Assembly: GCA_051745735.1 (NCBI GenBank)
Contig: JBNJEJ010000003.1
Location: 13,656 to 77,655 of the forward strand
Reading direction: 5' to 3'
From: Pseudomonadota bacterium
Lineage (GTDB): Bacteria > Pseudomonadota > Gammaproteobacteria > Enterobacterales > Alteromonadaceae
Length of the DNA: 64,000 nucleotides
Part shown: piece by piece, positions 23,258 through 34,063 of the stretch
Layout of the letters: the number at the start of each line of letters is the position of its first letter
How positions within the stretch are numbered: the stretch's first letter is position 1
Notes under the pieces: generated by a model
What the model was told of the DNA's origin: nothing
Databases searched by the model: none
The model's input: the letters and a program-made list of their open reading frames with translations, nothing else
Program-made: the position numbers and the translations under genes

Positions 23258-23743
23258 ATGGAAAAGCACGATGAGCTATTACTTGCTCTGCGTAAAGTCA
23301 TTCGTGCTATCGACCTGCACTCCAAGCAATTAAATAAGTATTCAGGACTGACCGCTCCGCAGTTACTGATATTACGGGAAATTATTGCAGGTGATGGCAT
23401 TACCGCCAGTCAGGTAGCACAAAATATCACCTTAAGTCCGGCCACCGTATCTAACGTTATCGAACGGATGGAACTGCGCGGGTTAATCCACCGGCAACGC
23501 AGTGCAACGGATAAACGGCGTGTTTTATTATACTTAAGTGACTATGGGCAGACGTTGCTGGACAAGGCACCACAGCCACTGCAACACGATTTCATACAAA
23601 AGTTCCAGGCGCTTGAGCAATGGGAGCAGTCGTTGCTGCTGTCTTCGATGCAACGCATTGCCACCATGATGGATGCCGAAAGACTGCAGGTTTCACCCGT
23701 ACTGGAAATGGACAGTTACCACACCATGGACTCAAACTCATGA
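23258..23743 (+). CDS. MarR-family transcriptional regulator (EctR/CosR-like)
   Basis: LRKVIRAIDLHSKQL, GLTAPQL, wHTH and DKRR wing. Confidence 0.9.
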   Translation: MEKHDELLLALRKVIRAIDLHSKQLNKYSGLTAPQLLILREIIAGDGITASQVAQNITLSPATVSNVIERMELRGLIHRQRSATDKRRVLLYLSDYGQTLLDKAPQPLQHDFIQKFQALEQWEQSLLLSSMQRIATMMDAERLQVSPVLEMDSYHTMDSNS

Positions 23744-25488
23744 CTAAACTCAGCACTCTCGCCGTTGCTTTGCTTTTGAGCAGCACTGCCGCGGCACAAA
23801 ATTGTCAATTAAAAAGCGATGTAACCCCCATCAGCGCGGTACAGGGTAAAACGGCCCAGTCGCCGCTGCTAAGTGACAGCGTCACGGTTGCTGGCGTTGT
23901 CACCGCTGACTGGAGTCAGCAAGGCCAGCTGAACGGTTTTTTTCTGCAGTCACTGGCCGATCACGAAGATCAGGACCCGTCCACCTCAGAGGCCTTGTTT
24001 GTTAACACCGGACACAACGCCGACGCCGTTAAAGTGGGTACTATTGTCAAAATCAGCGGAACCGTTAACGAAACCAACAACCTGACTCAATTAACCGACA
24101 CCAGCCGCTTTTACGAGTGCGGCAGCAGTGAGTTGCCGGCAGTGGTAAGTTTAAACTTACCTTTTTCCTCACAACTGCAGGCCGAAACCGTTGAAGGCAT
24201 GCGGGTGAAGGTCTCGGGCGAACAGCCGTTGACCATTTCGGGCCAGTATCAGTTCGCCCGACACGGCTTTTTTGACCTCTCCGCGGGTCGTTTGTGGACC
24301 CCCTCACAAATTGCCGAGCCAGGAGCTGCAGCTAAGGCTCAGGCGGCCAGTAACCGCTTGAATCGGCTGCAGGTTGACGATAACAGCAATCAACGACCGC
24401 AGCCGCTGCCCTACCAGGATCTTTTTCATGGGCCGAACAACAGTTTGCGCAGTGGCTCGACCCTGCAACCGATAACCGGTATCTTATCGCAGTACGGCGA
24501 TAACTATCGTCTGCAGCCGACCGCTGAACTGCAGTTGCTGCAACGCTCAAAGATTACACCGATTCAGCCTAAGCGTTCTGATCGTCTGCGCATCGCCAGT
24601 TTTAACGTACTGAATTATTTTAACGGTAACGGACAAGGTGGCGGGTTTCCTACTGACAGAGGAGCCAAAACATTAGATCAGTTTAAACGTCAGGAAGATA
24701 AAATTATTGCCGCCCTCAAAGCGTTGGATGCCGACGTATTCGGGTTAATGGAAATTGAAAACGACGGTTTTTCTGACAACAGCGCGATTCAGCAGTTGGT
24801 TAACGCTTTGAATCAAGCTCAGGATATACCTTACGCCATTGCTCAGCCACGGTCTGAGCGTGTTGGCGGTGATCAAATCAGCGTCGCGATCATCTACAAC
24901 AAAAACCGCTTAAAACCTGAAAACCATGCGCAAACCCACCAGCAAGGTCCTTTTCAGTGGGGCAGTCGCGTTCCTCTGGCACAGGTGTTTACGGATAGGG
25001 ATTCCGACCAGCGCTTTACTGCCGTGGTAAACCACTTTAAATCGAAAGGCGGTTGTCCGGAAGATGGGGCTAATGCAAATCAGCGTGACGGTCAGGCCTG
25101 CTGGAATGCGTTGCGACTTCAGTCTGCTGAAGAATTGGTGGCCTGGCTAAATGAGGAGCAGCTGCCTAACCCGGTTTTGATCGGCGACTTTAACGCTTAC
25201 TACATGGAAGACCCCATGCAGTACATGACAGCAAACGGCTACCATAACGTATCATCCGCTCGCGATTATTCTTACGTGTACAACAGCCAGGCAGGGGCAC
25301 TGGATCATATTTTGGTGAGCGACTCGTTAACCCAAAAAGTGGCGCTGGTTCAGCACATTAACTTTAATGCTGATGAGCCAACCATTTACGATTACCGCGA
25401 CCCGCACTATTATCAGCCAAACCCTTATCGCTCTTCGGATCATGATCCCTTATTGCTTGACCTGGACTGGCGAGATTCGGGTAAATAA
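23740..25488 (+). CDS. ExeM/NucH-family extracellular endonuclease
   Basis: Signal peptide from ATG 23740, OB-fold GFFLQ, EEP motifs FNVLNYF, NHFKSKG, GDFN, LDH, SSDHDP. Confidence 0.9.
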   Translation: MTKLSTLAVALLLSSTAAAQNCQLKSDVTPISAVQGKTAQSPLLSDSVTVAGVVTADWSQQGQLNGFFLQSLADHEDQDPSTSEALFVNTGHNADAVKVGTIVKISGTVNETNNLTQLTDTSRFYECGSSELPAVVSLNLPFSSQLQAETVEGMRVKVSGEQPLTISGQYQFARHGFFDLSAGRLWTPSQIAEPGAAAKAQAASNRLNRLQVDDNSNQRPQPLPYQDLFHGPNNSLRSGSTLQPITGILSQYGDNYRLQPTAELQLLQRSKITPIQPKRSDRLRIASFNVLNYFNGNGQGGGFPTDRGAKTLDQFKRQEDKIIAALKALDADVFGLMEIENDGFSDNSAIQQLVNALNQAQDIPYAIAQPRSERVGGDQISVAIIYNKNRLKPENHAQTHQQGPFQWGSRVPLAQVFTDRDSDQRFTAVVNHFKSKGGCPEDGANANQRDGQACWNALRLQSAEELVAWLNEEQLPNPVLIGDFNAYYMEDPMQYMTANGYHNVSSARDYSYVYNSQAGALDHILVSDSLTQKVALVQHINFNADEPTIYDYRDPHYYQPNPYRSSDHDPLLLDLDWRDSGK

Positions 25489-27674: not shown

Positions 27675-29690
27675 CTAAACCTGCCAGTTCAGCTCTCGCG
27701 CCCTCTGTGCAGCTTGTTTAGGCACATCGGTGGCAACAAAATGATGGTGCAACACCTGCACTCCCAGCATGTGATTGATGACCGCATCCAGTTGTACCTG
27801 TTCTTCTCCCTTAACCTGCGGGTTTTGATGCCGTTGAAAGGTTTTTACAACGGTATCGTAATCCAGTAAGCCAGCCTCTTCAACGGCTTGCTTATTGAGG
27901 AATTGCTCTGCCAATTGCTCAACGGCCTTCCATTTTTCCGGATCCGTGTGAGCGGGTGGCGCCATAAAAGCAAATTTTTCACGCTTGTACAGAGTCTCTG
28001 GTAACAAGCCCTTCATTGCTTCGCGTAACACGTACTTTTCTTTATTGCCTTTGATGCGCAAGTGCGGGGGAACTGTGAACGCATACTCTGCCAGATGATG
28101 GTCCAGAAAGGCAGGTCTTGCCTCCATCGAATTGGCCATATCGACCCGATCGCCACCCCAGGTGAGTATTTGTCCTTCGAGCATGGTTTTGATCCAGACA
28201 TACTGCGCTCGATCCAAAGGATGCCGTCCTTCCAGCATGGATTGATCCAGAGTCGCCGCAATGGCGCTGCTGGGATCGTAATGCTCGACCTGCTCACGCA
28301 TGGCTTCAGACATTAACGGTAAAGCAACGGAGCTGCATGAAAGCCATGGCTGCACACAACTGGGGGTAAAACCCACTTTTTGATTAAAGGCGTCACTGAC
28401 AAACTCTTCCCGCGCCAGCATTGCGCCTTTAAACAGTTTGTTGTTTTCTTCCAGTAACTTTTGCCATTCCAGTCGCTCAATTTCCGGCAAGTGGTCCAGC
28501 CCATGAAAAAACATATCCTTACGAAAGGCCGGGTAACCGGCAAACAACTCATCCGAACCTTCGCCCGTCATCACCACTTTATAGCCGGCTTCGTGAACTT
28601 GCTGGCTCATAAGATATTTAGCAACACCCAACGTATTGTATATGGTGCGTTCGGTATGCCAGAGAGTTTTAACAAAGTGGTCGTACAGATCATTAGCCTT
28701 TAATGCCATAATGTGATGGTCAGCATCCGTCGCTTCCGCCATTTCCCGGGCTATCGGCGTTTCATCATACTCGGCCGAATCAAAACCAATCGTAAACGCT
28801 TTAACCGATGTCTGCGTAGAGGCTGAGGCAAGACCCAAAATTGAGCAGGAGTCGATGCCACCAGACAAATAACAACCCACCGGCACATCAGCCGTCATAC
28901 GGTGCTGCACCGCCTCTAACAACTTAGCTCTGACGCCCTCGACATACTGTTCTTCGTCCACATCGTCAGCGGGATAATCCTGTTCGTTAGGGAAATTAAC
29001 ATCCCAGTACTTATGCTCGCTGATTGATAACTGACCATTGCGCCTGGCTACTTTTACCACATGGCCGGGCTGTACCTGATGAATACCCGCAAACGCCGTT
29101 GAACCGGGTACCATCACCTGAATTAACTGATGATAAACTCCCTCGGCTGAGAATTCTCGCTTAACGTCCGGGTGGGCGAACAGAACTTTTAACTCAGAAC
29201 CAAACACCACGCCGTTGTCCGTTTCGGTCCAGTAAAGAGGTTTGATACCAAATCGGTCGCGAACCAGGTACAAGCTGTCCTCAGCTTCATCAAATAAGCC
29301 AAAAGCAAACTCTCCACGCAATTCCTTCAATGCGCTTTCTAACCCATAACGCTCGAATAAGTGCAGCACGATTTCTGAATCGCTTTTGCTGTTGAAGCGG
29401 GCTCCGCGCGCTGTTAGGTCAGCCCGAATGCGCTTAAAATCATAGAACTCACCATTGTGAGTTAACATGAGCCGTTGATCGGTGGATAAAAACGGTTGCT
29501 TACCACGATTCTCGTCCAAATCGATAATCGACAGACGGGCATGGCTAAAACCAATGCCTCGCTCAGGTTTAATTTGATAACCAAAACCATCGGGACCGCG
29601 GTGATGCATAATGGCAGCCATATTAACCAGCGTCTGCGGGTCTATCGAGCGCTCGGCCTGATGATGAAAAACTCCAGCTATTCCGCACAT
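27675..29690 (-). CDS. Asparagine synthase (glutamine-hydrolysing)-family amidotransferase
   Basis: N-terminal MCGIAG (catalytic Cys2), HRGPDG, HNGEFY, RDRFGIKPL, SGGIDS PP-loop, TGEGSDELFAGY. Confidence 0.92.
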   Translation of the reverse strand: MCGIAGVFHHQAERSIDPQTLVNMAAIMHHRGPDGFGYQIKPERGIGFSHARLSIIDLDENRGKQPFLSTDQRLMLTHNGEFYDFKRIRADLTARGARFNSKSDSEIVLHLFERYGLESALKELRGEFAFGLFDEAEDSLYLVRDRFGIKPLYWTETDNGVVFGSELKVLFAHPDVKREFSAEGVYHQLIQVMVPGSTAFAGIHQVQPGHVVKVARRNGQLSISEHKYWDVNFPNEQDYPADDVDEEQYVEGVRAKLLEAVQHRMTADVPVGCYLSGGIDSCSILGLASASTQTSVKAFTIGFDSAEYDETPIAREMAEATDADHHIMALKANDLYDHFVKTLWHTERTIYNTLGVAKYLMSQQVHEAGYKVVMTGEGSDELFAGYPAFRKDMFFHGLDHLPEIERLEWQKLLEENNKLFKGAMLAREEFVSDAFNQKVGFTPSCVQPWLSCSSVALPLMSEAMREQVEHYDPSSAIAATLDQSMLEGRHPLDRAQYVWIKTMLEGQILTWGGDRVDMANSMEARPAFLDHHLAEYAFTVPPHLRIKGNKEKYVLREAMKGLLPETLYKREKFAFMAPPAHTDPEKWKAVEQLAEQFLNKQAVEEAGLLDYDTVVKTFQRHQNPQVKGEEQVQLDAVINHMLGVQVLHHHFVATDVPKQAAQRARELNWQV

Positions 29691-29708: not shown

Positions 29709-30776
29709 TTAAACAACGTCGATAACGCGCTCAGCGCGCTGTACCATGCAGGTCAGTAAAGCCATTCTTAAAAAAACAGCGCCGCGTGCCTGACTAAAGT
29801 ACCAATTATGCGGCGTGTGGTCCAAATCAGTATCCAGTTCGGGGCCTCGCGCTAACGGGTGCAGAACAATGGCATCGTGTTTTAATGGCGAGGCCGCTGA
29901 CAAACTGAATGACTTACCATAAGAGCTAAAGGTTTCGCCCTCCCAGGAAATCGCATTAATATAAACAACATCCAAATCCGGCAGGCTTGCGTCTAAATCG
30001 GTAGCGGTACGAATGCTGATACCGGCCTGTTCTATCTGCTCTCGTTGCTCTGCTCCAAATAACGAGTCATCAACGGAGTCGTCGTGAATGATGACCAGCT
30101 CTTTGACTGCATCCGGAAACGTACATAAGGACTTTATAAAGCTGCGCACTGTACGCATTTTATTCGGGATACCAATAATACCGATACTGACCGCTGCACT
30201 TTTTGCCTGGTCTGTTGCAAGTTGCGGACGCCATTTAAACAGCGCATACAAATCGGCTAAAGCTTGCGTTGGATGTTCATCACAGCCGTTACCGGCATTA
30301 ATAATTGGTATTCTTAAGGTATCAATCATCTCCTCTAACGAGGTATCGTTATTATCCCGCAGTACCACACAATCACCGTAATTATTAAACATCTCGGCCA
30401 CATCGGACAAGCATTCGCCTTTGGCGATACCGGTGGTAGATCGATCGGTAATGGACATGATGTCGCCACCCAGGCGGTGCCAGGCGCTTTCGAACGACAG
30501 GCGCGTCCGGGTGCTGGGTTCATAAAATGCAGAAATTAAAATTTTGCCCTGCAAAGAAGTACTAAAGCGACTTGGATTTGCCTCGTATTTTGCTGCTAAC
30601 CGAAACAACTGCAGCATCGTATTGGCACTGAATTGGTCCGAGGATACTACGTGCTGACTGGCTAACTTAAGAAGGTAGTCGCCATCTTCCTGAATCGCCC
30701 GCAACAATGCTTTAGGGTGCGCATCACCACACACATCGGGCCGTTCCCTTTTAAACGACACATCTTTTATGTTCAT
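29709..30776 (-). CDS. ATCase/OTCase-superfamily carbamoyltransferase, aspartate-type fold with altered acceptor site
   Basis: FYEPSTRTRLSFE, AKGE, NAGNG..EHPTQ, HPLAR; lacks RxQxER. Confidence 0.88.
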   Translation of the reverse strand: MNIKDVSFKRERPDVCGDAHPKALLRAIQEDGDYLLKLASQHVVSSDQFSANTMLQLFRLAAKYEANPSRFSTSLQGKILISAFYEPSTRTRLSFESAWHRLGGDIMSITDRSTTGIAKGECLSDVAEMFNNYGDCVVLRDNNDTSLEEMIDTLRIPIINAGNGCDEHPTQALADLYALFKWRPQLATDQAKSAAVSIGIIGIPNKMRTVRSFIKSLCTFPDAVKELVIIHDDSVDDSLFGAEQREQIEQAGISIRTATDLDASLPDLDVVYINAISWEGETFSSYGKSFSLSAASPLKHDAIVLHPLARGPELDTDLDHTPHNWYFSQARGAVFLRMALLTCMVQRAERVIDVV

Positions 30777-30780
30777 AGAG

Positions 30781-30903
30781 TTACCATATCGTTTTAGAAA
30801 AATAATCTTTCACGAATAACACCACTAGCACCAGCGGCGTTAACATGGTCGCTGCCAGCGCAGTTATAATTAATATCGAAAAAATGAGTTCGGAGATTTG
30901 CAT
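30781..30903 (-). CDS. 40-aa single-TM small membrane protein (not in ORF track)
   Basis: ATG at 30903 to TAA at 30781: MQISELIFSILIITALAATMLTPLVLVVLFVKDYFSKTIW; GAGGA RBS in the upstream gene's 3' end; fills the operon gap (1-nt and 4-nt spacers). Confidence 0.8.
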   Translation of the reverse strand: MQISELIFSILIITALAATMLTPLVLVVLFVKDYFSKTIW

Positions 30904-30904
30904 C

Positions 30905-32323
30905 TCAATTGTCCTCGCTCAATTGTTGCCAATCGAATTGCTGCTGACTGCGCACCACTCCCAACCAGCAAATCAAGCCCGATACCGCACAGGCAGTTAA
31001 AGCCGCTACGTAAAAACCGATCATAAAATAACTGACTAAGCCACTTAGGGTACCGATAGCCATCCCCAGGGCGGCGTACTTACCGGTTAAACGACCAAAA
31101 TACAGTCCCAGTACAATTGGCCAAATCGTACTGGCAACGAAAGCGCCGGCAAAATTTAGCAGTCCACCTAAAGTCGCTATGCGCGGCAGACACAGCAGCC
31201 AGGTCATGATACCCAACGCCAAAATGCATAACCGGTTAAAGCGCATCAGGGTTTTATCGCTCGCCGCAGGCTTAATTTTTTTATGGAACAGATCCTGAGT
31301 CACCAGATCGGAGGTAGCAGCCAGTAATGAATCCAGGCTGGATGCCAATGCCGAAAAAATAACAATAAACACAATCACCGCACCGGCTTTTCCCAGTACC
31401 GCGGCGGCTACTGTTGGACCTATCATATCCGGACTGGGTGGAAAAATCCCCAGTTTAGGTGCCGCCAAAGCGATAAAACCGGTCACAATCGGGATCGGCA
31501 ACCACATTAAACCGGCGGTAACATAGGCTTTATAGGCAACGTTTTTCTTGAACGACAAGGCCCGTGACCACCACACATTGGAATGAAAGATTTCGCCCAG
31601 ACCAAAAAAAATATTATTAAATAAAAACATGACCGCTGCCGGAAACAGCACATCCAGCAGTTTCGGGCTACGTTGCGACAGGTTGTCATGAATACTGCTT
31701 AAACCGACGTTATCGATAAGCCAGTACGCAATAACACTCACCCCGATGATGATGATCAGGGCCTGAATAAAGTCCGTTGCAATGACTGCCCGCATGCCGC
31801 CAAATAACGTGTAGCCAACACAAATCAGCAAAATGGCCGACATACCAACGTGATAATCGAGTCCGCTCAGAGATTCCAGCAAAATACCGCCAGCCATGCC
31901 CAGGCTGATCAACCAGGCAAATGCGTAAACCAGCGAAATAACAATAAAAACCCACCAGGCGGCAGGCCCGTATCGTAACCGGATAAAGTCGCCTGAGGTG
32001 TAGCCGTTAGGGAGCAGCGCCTTGATGCGCTTTGCCATCGGCGCAAATAATAACAACCCCAGGGCGGCAAACGAGTAGCCAACCATACCCCATAAACCAA
32101 ACTGATAGGTCAACTGTGGTGCCACCAGCGTCGTATTACTGGTGACCCAGGTTGCCATGGCTGTCGCAGCGGCAAAAGCAAAGCCCACGTTACGTCCGGC
32201 CAGGGCAAAATCTTCGTGGCTTTTATTCTTCCGGCCCAGCCAGTAACCAAACAAAACCCAGGCAACACCAAAAACTGCCACAATGGTCAAACCCAACCAG
32301 CGATCCAGTGCAAATTCGGTCAT
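30905..32323 (-). CDS. Sodium:solute symporter (SSS/SLC5; DUR3/urea-transporter-like)
   Basis: About 13 TMs, EDFALAGRNVG, YTLFGGMRAVIATD.IQ, SSLDSLLAATS. Confidence 0.88.
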   Translation of the reverse strand: MTEFALDRWLGLTIVAVFGVAWVLFGYWLGRKNKSHEDFALAGRNVGFAFAAATAMATWVTSNTTLVAPQLTYQFGLWGMVGYSFAALGLLLFAPMAKRIKALLPNGYTSGDFIRLRYGPAAWWVFIVISLVYAFAWLISLGMAGGILLESLSGLDYHVGMSAILLICVGYTLFGGMRAVIATDFIQALIIIIGVSVIAYWLIDNVGLSSIHDNLSQRSPKLLDVLFPAAVMFLFNNIFFGLGEIFHSNVWWSRALSFKKNVAYKAYVTAGLMWLPIPIVTGFIALAAPKLGIFPPSPDMIGPTVAAAVLGKAGAVIVFIVIFSALASSLDSLLAATSDLVTQDLFHKKIKPAASDKTLMRFNRLCILALGIMTWLLCLPRIATLGGLLNFAGAFVASTIWPIVLGLYFGRLTGKYAALGMAIGTLSGLVSYFMIGFYVAALTACAVSGLICWLGVVRSQQQFDWQQLSEDN

Positions 32324-32987: not shown

Positions 32988-33359
32988 ATGATGTATCTTT
33001 GCAGTTTAGGTTCGAACATCGAACCGGAGATTCACTTTTCCAGAGCAAAACATTACTTAGCCAAGCTTTCCGAACAGCTGGAGTTTTCCCGTGATATTGT
33101 TACGCAACCCGTTGGTATTCAAACCAACAAGCCTTTTTTAAATGCGCTTTTCACCCTCGAAACACCGCTTTCTGAACAGCAACTTAAGCAGCAATTTAAT
33201 GCCATAGAGGAAACTCTGGGACGCGACCGCTCAGATCCCGACTGCAGCATCAAAGATCGACCCATCGACATTGATATCTTAGGCGAAGTTAATGCTAATC
33301 CCGAAGTTCCTCATTATTTAAACTCGTTAGAAACTGAATTGTTAGGTGACCAAATATGA
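32988..33359 (+). CDS. HPPK (FolK)-like pyrophosphokinase, short form
   Basis: SLGSNI, FLNA, IEETLGR, RPIDIDIL. Confidence 0.82.
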   Translation: MMYLCSLGSNIEPEIHFSRAKHYLAKLSEQLEFSRDIVTQPVGIQTNKPFLNALFTLETPLSEQQLKQQFNAIEETLGRDRSDPDCSIKDRPIDIDILGEVNANPEVPHYLNSLETELLGDQI

Positions 33360-34063
33360 CCAAAGTGGCTTTAATTACAGGTGCCGGCAGACGGTTTGGC
33401 TATCAACTGGCTGACACCCTGCTGGACCAGGGCTATACCGTATTTGCCCATTACAACAACTCCAAACAGGGTGTCGAAAAACTGGAGCAAAAAGGTGCTA
33501 TTGGTTTACAGGCGGACTTTAACAATAACCAGGCCATTGATGAGCTGATCAGTCGTGTCAAAGAACAAACTAAACATCTGGATTTGCTGGTTAACAACGC
33601 CTCCTGCTTTTTTGATAATGAAGCCGTTAACACCAGTAATGATAACCTTGCTGCTGTATACCAGGTTCATGCGGTAGCTCCCTACAAACTGATTCATGGC
33701 TTACAGCATCTGCTGGCCGTTGCCAATGATGGTCTGGTCATCAACATCACAGATATTTACAGCGACCGCCCCTCTACGGATTACATCGCTTATTGCGGCG
33801 CAAAATCGGCTTTGGCTAATATGACCCTTGGTTTTGCTAAAAGTCTGGCTCCTAATATCCGTGTTAACGCCATACAGCCCGGGCCTATTTTATTTTTACC
33901 GGAACATGACGACGAACACCGCCGAACGGTTTTGGCAGAAACGCCGCTGAACATTGAGGGTGGCCTGCAGCCTATGATTGAAACAGTAAAATTTTTGCGT
34001 GACAACCCGTTTTTAACAGGCGAATCGATTAAAGTGGATGGTGGTCGAGCTTTGAAAATTTAA
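33356..34063 (+). CDS. Pteridine reductase/FolM-like SDR
   Basis: TGAGRRFG, VNNAS, INITD, YCGAK, VNAIQPG; ATGA overlap with the FolK-like gene. Confidence 0.82.
   Translation: MTKVALITGAGRRFGYQLADTLLDQGYTVFAHYNNSKQGVEKLEQKGAIGLQADFNNNQAIDELISRVKEQTKHLDLLVNNASCFFDNEAVNTSNDNLAAVYQVHAVAPYKLIHGLQHLLAVANDGLVINITDIYSDRPSTDYIAYCGAKSALANMTLGFAKSLAPNIRVNAIQPGPILFLPEHDDEHRRTVLAETPLNIEGGLQPMIETVKFLRDNPFLTGESIKVDGGRALKI

What the first reader, a model, noticed from the sequence alone, without database searches (positions are those of the whole stretch)
29709..30776. ATCase paralog keeps the carbamoyl-phosphate site but has lost the aspartate beta-carboxylate anchor
Seen: STRT, the Lys84-equivalent (AKGE), Arg105-equivalent (VLR), HPTQ and an Arg167-equivalent (MRT) are present. 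The TRxQxER loop is replaced by YINAISWEG, HPLP becomes HPLA, and there is an N-terminal extension of about 40 aa. The OTCase SMG and HCLP motifs are absent. Established: in E. coli PyrB, Arg167 binds the alpha-carboxylate and Arg229/Gln231 bind the beta-carboxylate. Inference: a new specificity for an alpha-amino acid with a neutral side chain such as Gln or Asn.
Basis: partly seen in the sequence, partly recalled or inferred. Interest (0 to 1): 0.72.

Follow-up and report, generated by a model that had tools for sequence, protein, structure and literature searches.

The report
Marine pseudo-ATCase, candidate osmolyte-synthesis enzyme
This gene resembles the pyrimidine enzyme aspartate transcarbamoylase but lacks the residues that hold aspartate's side chain; it belongs to an untested marine family described in 2013, and with its constant amidotransferase partner it likely makes a carbamoylated, amidated amino acid that probably protects cells against salt.

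Summary
The 355-aa ORF keeps STRT, K84, R105, H134 and R167. Its R229-x-Q231 reads A-I-S and HPLP reads HPLA, and these changes are fixed across 389 relatives. The genome also has a separate canonical PyrB.

The protein is not new as a family. It matches the motifs and context of the marine "pseudo-ATCase" subgroup of Barba et al. 2013, whose function was not tested.

It lies in a five-gene cassette with a DUR3-like symporter and an intact glutamine-dependent AsnB-type amidotransferase (100 of 100 loci). An N-carbamoyl-amino-acid hydrolase and a CosR/EctR-like repressor are frequent neighbours. No carbamate kinase was found in 6 genomes.

Best reading, inferred: the enzyme carbamoylates a non-aspartate amino acid, most likely glutamine, and AsnB then amidates it to the osmolyte N-carbamoyl-glutamine-1-amide (CGA). 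I found no genes for CGA in print. Named Ectothiorhodospira species carry the gene, but I did not see the CGA producer E. marismortui by name.

Against: an NMR solute survey of Rhodopirellula baltica, a family member, reports no such compound. The substrate (Gln, Glu or Asn) is unresolved.

This scan found the same family before on other DNA.

The parts
29709..30776 (-). Pseudo-ATCase (marine subgroup), 355 aa: carbamoyl-phosphate site intact, aspartate side-chain anchor replaced (N274-A-I-S-W278), HPLA
   Evidence: motifs match Barba 2013 Table 1
27675..29690 (-). AsnB-type glutamine-dependent amidotransferase, 671 aa, 18 bp downstream; Cys1 and PP-loop SGGIDS intact; family-specific ERTIYNT segment where E. 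coli AsnB has ETYDVTTIRAS
   Evidence: TIGR01536 453.6 bits, over cut-off; NAGGN AsnO model TIGR03104 306 bits, under its 570 cut-off; motif counts 96-99 of 100; spacing
30781..30903 (-). 40-aa single-transmembrane micro-protein, likely a small subunit of the symporter (inferred)
   Evidence: a hydrophobic micro-ORF lies between symporter and carbamoyltransferase in 93 of 98 loci
30905..32323 (-). Sodium:solute symporter family transporter, 472 aa; closest solved relatives are DUR3 urea transporters
   Evidence: PF00474; PDB hits E about 1e-32 to DUR3 against >=1e-10 for others; present in 98 of 100 loci at >=200 bits
32323..32835 (-). 170-aa protein with predicted N-terminal signal and C-terminal membrane anchor, FN3/Ig-like by language-model features; first gene of the cassette
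   Evidence: no Pfam or NCBIfam hit; ESM Atlas look-alikes 0.93-0.97, one named fibronectin type III; tblastn match in 85 of 100 loci
23258..23743 (+). MarR regulator of the CosR/EctR kind, about 3.9 kb beyond asnB; probable salt-responsive repressor of the cassette (inferred, binding untested)
   Evidence: 48% identical to a MarR beside ectAB/proVWX and the only such hit in this genome

Best explanation
The protein is a member of the marine pseudo-ATCase family and likely transfers a carbamoyl group from carbamoyl phosphate to the alpha-amino group of a non-aspartate L-amino acid, most likely glutamine, which the adjacent AsnB-type amidotransferase would then amidate to give the uncharged solute N-carbamoyl-L-glutamine-1-amide (CGA), probably an osmolyte.

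Shown: intact carbamoyl-phosphate site and R167; loss of R229/Q231; fixed pairing with an intact amidotransferase; a separate canonical PyrB and CarB in the genome; no carbamate kinase found.

Inferred: the biosynthetic direction; the order of steps (R167 is kept, so the alpha-carboxylate is still free at carbamoylation); glutamine as substrate (R229>Ala and Q231>Ser/Ala leave a larger, uncharged pocket); re-uptake by the DUR3-like symporter; breakdown by a cysteine amidase plus the M20 carbamoylase; salt control by the CosR/EctR-like MarR.
For: 1. AsnB lies next to the gene in 100 of 100 loci (within 400 bp in 97) and the symporter in 98. The AsnB catalytic motifs are intact in 96-99 of 100.

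2. An M20 hydrolase, closest solved relative N-carbamoyl-L-amino acid hydrolase, lies in 39 of 100 loci, and an isochorismatase-family cysteine amidase in 20 of 100. This genome holds the M20 orthologue on contig C27, 55-62% identical to the cassette copies of the closer lineage.

3. No carbamate kinase scores over the cut-off in 5 carrier genomes or in this one; the control rang over the cut-off in 2 of 14. Barba et al. state that the equilibrium favours carbamoylation and that their catabolic subgroup lies beside carbamate kinase. CarB is present here.

4. A MarR lies within about 2 kb of the cassette in 15 of 50 loci L053-L102. All 4 plasmid-collection relatives that I opened (of 450 records matched) lie beside osmolyte genes: divergent from a BCCT transporter at 60% identity, the CosR arrangement; after ectAB/proVWX; divergent from ectABC-ask.

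5. Osmolyte genes flank 3 of 33 loci screened: BCCT plus proBA-like genes (L072), sucrose synthase plus MscS (L086), MscS (L084).

6. Named members occur in several Ectothiorhodospira species, Ectothiorhodosinus mongolicus and Thiorhodospira sibirica. Imhoff et al. name the last two as lacking betaine/ectoine synthesis genes and suggest CGA as one candidate solute. CGA is reported from E. marismortui. In family f123, 41 of 41 near-complete genomes carry the gene, and 11 of 11 genomes of genus g124 carry both enzymes.
Against: 1. No enzyme activity or product has been measured.

2. Rhodopirellula baltica carries a member (RB13301 per Barba), yet an 800-MHz NMR survey across salinities names only sucrose, glutamate, trehalose and mannosylglucosylglycerate; 'carbamoyl' has 0 hits in the text. 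RB13301 does not appear in the regulated-gene file of a salt-shock transcriptome.

3. I did not see E. marismortui or E. mobilis by name in any hit list.

4. The cysteine amidase orthologue was not found in this genome or in four relatives, so the proposed breakdown route lacks a step there.

5. The AsnB falls below the cut-off of the NAGGN AsnO model.

6. Leptonema illini, not a known halophile (recalled), has a member.

7. The specificity loop is the least certain core part of the model (pLDDT 73-83 for residues 271-290), and conserved R211 and K/R206 could favour glutamate.

8. Osmolyte neighbours are missing in 30 of 33 loci screened.
Confidence: 0.5

Rival explanations
1. Same biosynthetic chemistry but another amino acid or product. 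The enzyme would carbamoylate glutamate, asparagine or another L-amino acid, and AsnB would amidate one carboxylate, giving a CGA-like solute used for osmotic balance or nitrogen storage.
For: R211 (384/389) and K/R206 (371/389) are conserved basic residues near R167. The best named-substrate NCBIfam model for the linked M20 enzyme is N-carbamyl-L-glutamate amidohydrolase ErtE (367-376 bits). In picocyanobacteria the cluster tracks N- and P-depleted waters. No CGA was reported in R. baltica.
Against: The ErtE score is under its 520 cut-off. CGA is the only natural product of this type that my searches turned up. The R. baltica survey shows no other ureido solute either.
Confidence: 0.27
2. Nitrogen scavenging. 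The DUR3-like symporter imports a ureido compound and the pseudo-ATCase splits it by phosphorolysis to release carbamoyl phosphate, as the Rubrobacter ureidoglycine carbamoyltransferase does.
For: The transporter's closest solved relatives are urea transporters. Ureido-hydrolysing enzymes are linked. A different pseudo-ATCase subgroup is a proven catabolic enzyme.
Against: No carbamate kinase over cut-off in 6 genomes. The invariant partner is an ATP- and glutamine-consuming synthetase, while the hydrolases are the dispensable part (39 and 20 of 100 loci). An M20 hydrolase would make phosphorolysis redundant.
Confidence: 0.12
3. A second true aspartate carbamoyltransferase serving an alternative pyrimidine route ('pyrB2', as suggested for the Synechococcus/Prochlorococcus asnB-pyrB2-pydC cluster).
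For: The fold is closest to ATCases (Z about 38, rmsd about 2 A over about 300 residues). The best sequence hits are ATCases. Dore et al. 2023 suggest it.
Against: R-x-Q is absent in 389 of 389. Scores are under all ATCase cut-offs while the genome's own PyrB passes them. A canonical ATCase coexists in 11 of 11 genomes checked. The recurring neighbours include no other pyrimidine gene that I recognised.
Confidence: 0.07

Closest known systems
Marine pseudo-ATCase subgroup (Barba, Dutoit, Legrain & Labedan 2013, PMC4016543)
   Same: Motifs STRT, HPTQ, HPLA and AIS. Na+ symporter on one side. Position at the base of ATC II. Clusters with Nitrosococcus oceani ATCC 19707, a named member, and occurs in Kangiella.
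   Different: Nothing that excludes membership. The paper calls the downstream gene an 'asparaginase'; here it is an AsnB-type amidotransferase. The paper's table and text number the subgroups differently. It proposed no function for this subgroup in the parts I read.
Aspartate carbamoyltransferase catalytic chain PyrB (EC 2.1.3.2)
   Same: Fold (Z about 38), about 31% identity, all carbamoyl-phosphate ligands, R167/T168.
   Different: R229>Ala, Q231>Ser, T228>Asn, K232>Trp, R234>Gly, P268>Ala; 34-aa N-terminal extension; under family cut-offs; separate clade; non-pyrimidine operon.
Ureidoglycine carbamoyltransferase Rxyl_2847 (the only assayed pseudo-ATCase in that paper)
   Same: ATCase-derived, R-x-Q lost, acts on a non-aspartate substrate.
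   Different: Different subgroup. Catabolic, beside carbamate kinase and allantoinase; neither is linked here, and no carbamate kinase was found in 6 genomes.
NAGGN (N-acetylglutaminylglutamine amide) pathway, AsnO plus Ngg, with hydrolase and MarR (pathway details recalled; model names)
   Same: Logic: cap the alpha-amino group, amidate a carboxylate with an AsnB-type enzyme, giving an uncharged glutamine-based osmolyte.
   Different: The cap is carbamoyl, not acetyl-peptide. The AsnB scores under the TIGR03104 cut-off. No GNAT/ATP-grasp partner among the recurring neighbours. A DUR3-like symporter is present.
Picocyanobacterial asnB-pyrB2-pydC gene cluster (Dore et al. 2023, PMC10119275)
   Same: The same trio of gene types: AsnB, PyrB-like and carbamoylase.
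   Different: Interpreted there as alternative pyrimidine synthesis, without a test. I did not align its sequences; the link rests on Barba naming Synechococcus WH 8102 as a member.

Membership tests
Marine pseudo-ATCase (Barba 2013) | STRT and HPTQ carbamoyltransferase signatures | tested here: met
Marine pseudo-ATCase (Barba 2013) | HPLA and AIA/AIS/SIA in place of HPLP and R-x-Q | tested here: met
   HPLA 306-309 and AIS 275-277; Table 1
Marine pseudo-ATCase (Barba 2013) | Na+ symporter on one side, Asn-related gene on the other, carbamoylase usually adjacent | tested here: met
   the carbamoylase is elsewhere in this genome
Marine pseudo-ATCase (Barba 2013) | Clade with named members, at the base of ATC II; genuine PyrB elsewhere in the genome | tested here: met
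   groups with N. oceani P0461 (99/96), family clade 100/99; PyrB on contig C8
Canonical ATCase (PyrB) | R229-x-Q231 and HP[LG]P | tested here: not met
Canonical ATCase (PyrB) | Score above curated family cut-offs | tested here: not met
   189.7 against 236.95 (TIGR00670) and 189.9 against 263 (PRK00856)
Canonical ATCase (PyrB) | Carbamoylates L-aspartate | not testable with these tools
   needs an enzyme assay
OTCase / PTCase / AOTCase | DxxxSMG and HCLP motifs; placement in the OTCase clade | tested here: not met
Ureidoglycine carbamoyltransferase (catabolic pseudo-ATCase) | Carbamate kinase and allantoinase context | tested here: not met
   no carbamate kinase over cut-off in 6 genomes; context; Rubrobacter context
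NAGGN amidotransferase AsnO (partner gene) | TIGR03104 cut-off 570 | tested here: not met
   306 bits
CGA biosynthesis pathway | Present in the known producer E. marismortui | tested here: inconclusive
CGA biosynthesis pathway | Makes N-carbamoyl-L-glutamine-1-amide | not testable with these tools
   needs reconstitution or metabolite analysis

The most novel reading that the evidence does not exclude
The cassette is the missing biosynthesis, uptake and recycling system for N-carbamoyl-glutamine-1-amide. The pseudo-ATCase is a glutamine carbamoyltransferase, a specificity not yet assigned in this superfamily. The compound is then a widespread, overlooked osmolyte of marine and soda-lake bacteria (Idiomarinaceae, Kangiella, Ectothiorhodospiraceae, Nitrosococcus, marine Synechococcus), under CosR/EctR-type control, rather than a curiosity of one species.
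Probability: 0.42. Interest if true: 0.75.

Novelty: new member of a known kind. Interest (0 to 1): 0.52.

Why it matters
The gene is annotated as aspartate carbamoyltransferase in public databases, which is very probably wrong for a family found in 24 of 400 Gammaproteobacteria genomes sampled and in marine cyanobacteria. If the CGA reading holds, a two-gene expression test would assign genes to an osmolyte known since 1991 and add a new carbamoyltransferase specificity. It would also point to an unrecognised nitrogen-rich solute in marine bacteria, and offer a solute for Ectothiorhodosinus and Thiorhodospira, which lack betaine and ectoine synthesis genes. The family itself, its motifs and its core gene context are already in print.

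Tried and rejected
Literature. Searches for a published function or for CGA genes found none: 1 paper, a mention only; 0; 5 papers, mentions; only Barba 2013; 0; 0. The library lacks most subscription journals and theses, so absence from print is not proven. The search for the R167/R229/Q231 roles gave 0 papers. Barba's supplementary trees and alignments could not be read; they may list more members. Dore's Fig. S8 and datasets were not seen.

E. marismortui and E. mobilis were sought by name in three capped homologue lists and three cluster look-ups and not seen. The lists show only the top 120, so this is not absence.

The ectoine synthase search in five carrier genomes rang nowhere, controls included, so it is uninformative.

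The promoter scan found 5 sites against 7.2 expected by chance.

R. baltica salt-shock file: RB13294 and RB13300, two small hypothetical genes numbered near RB13301, are in the 'salinity_up' sheet. I did not verify that they belong to the cassette, so I do not count them.

RNA: contigs of four salt-lake metatranscriptome runs, all from one study, cover most of the gene, and two contigs bridge it to asnB. Contigs cannot show level, strand or co-transcription, and DNA carry-over is not excluded.

No family member turned up in the plasmid collection; the best hits were about 32% identical.

No complex prediction was run because no binding claim is made.

A frameshift or decayed-gene artefact is rejected: the substitutions are fixed across the family. 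A lactam- or hydantoin-forming role for the AsnB is less likely because Cys1 and the glutaminase motifs are kept in 97-98 of 100.

Full report
OBSERVATION. The ORF at 29709-30776 (minus strand) encodes 355 aa with both carbamoyltransferase Pfam domains. Its best NCBIfam models are ATCases, but it is under every cut-off (189.7 against 236.95 for TIGR00670). Against E. coli PyrB it keeps S52-T55, K84, R105, H134, Q137, R167 and T168. The 240s-loop segment maps without gaps as T228>N274, R229>A275, Q231>S277, K232>W278 and R234>G280, and P268 is Ala. The OTCase motifs are absent. The extension is about 34 aa. An AlphaFold model (mean pLDDT 91; loop 271-290 only 73-83) matches solved ATCases at Z about 38 and rmsd about 2 A. 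That R167 binds the alpha-carboxylate and R229/Q231 the beta-carboxylate is recalled knowledge; my search for a paper stating it returned none, although Barba et al. list R-x-Q as the ATCase motif.

A FAMILY, NOT A DECAYED COPY. The closest named relative is 92% identical, from Idiomarina seosinensis. Among 389 near-full-length proteins at >=50% identity (of 515 matched; includes the query and redundant cluster members), STRT, K119, R140, H168, W278 and HPLAR are 389/389, N274 is 388/389, and none has Arg or Gln at the 229 or 231 positions. A 74-row maximum-likelihood tree puts the family in one clade (bootstrap/SH-aLRT 100/99, stem 0.76) with no R-x-Q member. With one unrelated long-branch row it is sister to the ATC II group, which has moderate support (89/92); OTCases and the Pseudomonas-type ATCases fall outside. 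The tree used 22 of 68 R-x-Q representatives, drawn at random. This genome has a canonical PyrB on another contig (TRIQ, HPLP; over four ATCase cut-offs), as do 10 of 10 other carrier genomes. The gene was found in 24 of 400 Gammaproteobacteria sampled (this count includes the own genome and one unpublished genome, G260), 16 of 121 in the own family, 3 of 401 in the phylum sample and 49 of 55 in family f123, including 41 of 41 near-complete genomes.

ALREADY DESCRIBED. I read passages and parts 2-3 of 7 of its main section; its supplements were unreadable. The paper defines 'pseudo-ATCases' at the root of ATC II. One subgroup has HPLA and AIA/AIS/SIA; the marine subgroup (Rhodopirellula RB13301, Nitrosococcus oceani, Synechococcus WH 8102, Kangiella) lies between a Na+ symporter and a 'putative asparaginase', usually next to a carbamoylase. 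The table and text number the subgroups differently, but the N. oceani protein has SIA and HPLA and groups with the query. Only the Rubrobacter enzyme of another subgroup was assayed, as a catabolic ureidoglycine carbamoyltransferase beside carbamate kinase. Dore et al. 2023 (passages) list an asnB-pyrB2-pydC cluster in picocyanobacteria and suggest alternative pyrimidine synthesis, untested.

ANATOMY. Five minus-strand genes follow each other with a 1-bp overlap and gaps of 1, 4 and 18 bp: a 170-aa FN3-like membrane-anchored protein, an SSS transporter closest to DUR3 urea transporters, a 40-aa membrane micro-protein, the pseudo-ATCase and a 671-aa AsnB-type amidotransferase. I examined 100 loci: the best 80 of 383 GTDB matches, biased to Idiomarinaceae, and 20 of the 23 other class-sample hits. 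AsnB was present in 100, the symporter in 98, the 170-aa gene in 85, an M20 carbamoylase in 39 and a cysteine amidase in 20, all 20 in the class sample. The micro-ORF was found in 93 of 98. AsnB keeps Cys1 (97/100) and the PP-loop (98/100) and has its own ERT[IV]YN segment (96/100) where E. coli AsnB has ETYDVTTIRAS. The Idiomarina genome holds the M20 orthologue on another contig but no amidase orthologue. A more distant member at 45% identity keeps symporter, carbamoyltransferase, AsnB and a nearby M20.

DIRECTION. No carbamate kinase passes the cut-off in five carrier genomes or in this 87%-complete one, CarB is present, and the equilibrium favours carbamoylation. The invariant partner spends ATP and glutamine, while the hydrolases come and go. 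I infer biosynthesis. Because R167 is kept, carbamoylation likely comes first and amidation second. An amidase and a carbamoylase would reverse the two steps.

OSMOLYTE LINK. A MarR lies within about 2 kb of the cassette in 15 of 50 loci L053-L102, 12 of them 36-54% identical to a MarR found beside ectAB/proVWX. All four relatives that I opened, of 450 plasmid-collection records, sit beside osmolyte genes. One is a 158-aa MarR divergent from a BCCT gene, the arrangement that Gregory et al. describe for the compatible-solute repressor CosR (passages). The window's MarR at 23258-23743 is of this kind. Osmolyte genes flank 3 of 33 loci screened. [quoted passage not shown] The product predicted from carbamoylation plus amidation of glutamine is that compound. 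Named members occur in E. magna, E. shaposhnikovii, E. lacustris, E. marina, strain PHS-1, Ectothiorhodosinus mongolicus and Thiorhodospira sibirica. Imhoff et al. 2020 (passages) single out the last two as lacking betaine/ectoine synthesis and list CGA among the candidates. All 11 genomes of genus g124, one of whose proteins is 82-83% identical to named Ectothiorhodospira proteins, carry both enzymes. E. marismortui itself, a distinct species per Imhoff et al. 2022 (passages), was not seen by name.

AGAINST. In R. baltica an NMR survey reports only sucrose, glutamate, trehalose and mannosylglucosylglycerate (passages), and RB13301 is not in the regulated-gene file of a salt-shock study (passages and supplement search). 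A description of Idiomarina aminovorans explains salt tolerance by betaine, proline and glutamate genes, from genome annotation only (passages). Leptonema illini has the gene. Conserved R211 and K/R206 and the ErtE-like M20 score leave glutamate open. Nothing has been assayed.

VERDICT. The family is published and uncharacterised, so this is a new member of a known kind. My odds: biosynthetic carbamoylation coupled to amidation about 0.8; CGA as osmolyte about 0.5; another amino acid or product about 0.27; catabolic scavenging about 0.12; true ATCase about 0.07. I had written down the CGA idea before consulting the scan's notes; eight earlier notes on other genomes reach the same reading and are not independent evidence. 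No paper linking these genes to CGA turned up.

Noticed in passing
proteins P0133, P0136, P0138-P0141, P0143, P0144, P0147-P0151, P0159; loci L139-L166: A sister clade (100/99 for the 9 rows in the tree) has lost STRT, K84 and HPLA and looks catalytically dead. In 27 of 28 metagenome loci no cassette gene lies beside it (many contigs are short, and the one exception is an ordinary family member). L140 has it among CoA-ligase-like and DAHP-synthase-like genes (by eye). Possible pseudo-enzyme of unknown role.
   Followed up: partly
proteins P0128-P0131, P0137, P0187; L133:8444-9601: A second sister clade keeps STRT and HPLA, with loop variants such as NSIA, NALV, NVIA and NSLT, and includes an Actinophytocola protein. 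The one 45%-identity locus read (L133, not placed in the tree) keeps the symporter, AsnB and M20 context. It may have other specificities.
   Followed up: partly
G000 contig C27:11469-12701 (outside the window): An orphan M20 N-carbamoyl-amino-acid hydrolase, 55-62% identical to the cassette-linked copies of related genera; the cassette's hydrolase has apparently moved.
   Followed up: yes
window 23258-23743 (+): A CosR/EctR-like MarR, the only one found in this genome, directly upstream of an extracellular nuclease-like gene (23620-25488).
   Followed up: partly
window 30781-30903 (-): A conserved 40-aa membrane micro-protein that a 60-aa ORF cut-off would miss; often ends in a K/D-x-x-x-K-x-x-W-like tail.
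   Followed up: yes
L100 (G148:C6), L074, L065: The L100 cassette looks broken: a TGA inside the carbamoyltransferase match and a split AsnB and symporter. L074 and L065 only seemed to lack genes because of antisense ORFs in my gene calling; tblastn found them.
   Followed up: partly
G000 contig C50:399-1961 (outside the window): A second AsnB-family gene, 28% identical to the cassette's, possibly the housekeeping or polysaccharide-amidating copy.
   Followed up: no
R. baltica RB13294 and RB13300 (PMC2754498, supplement 1): Two small hypothetical genes numbered next to the pseudo-ATCase RB13301 are in the 10-min salinity-up list; their sizes (182 and 62 aa) resemble the cassette's small genes. 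Identity not checked.
   Followed up: no
window 32988-34063 (+): folK and a folM-like pteridine reductase lie divergent from the cassette in most Idiomarina and Pseudidiomarina loci but not in other genera, so this is local synteny only.
   Followed up: partly
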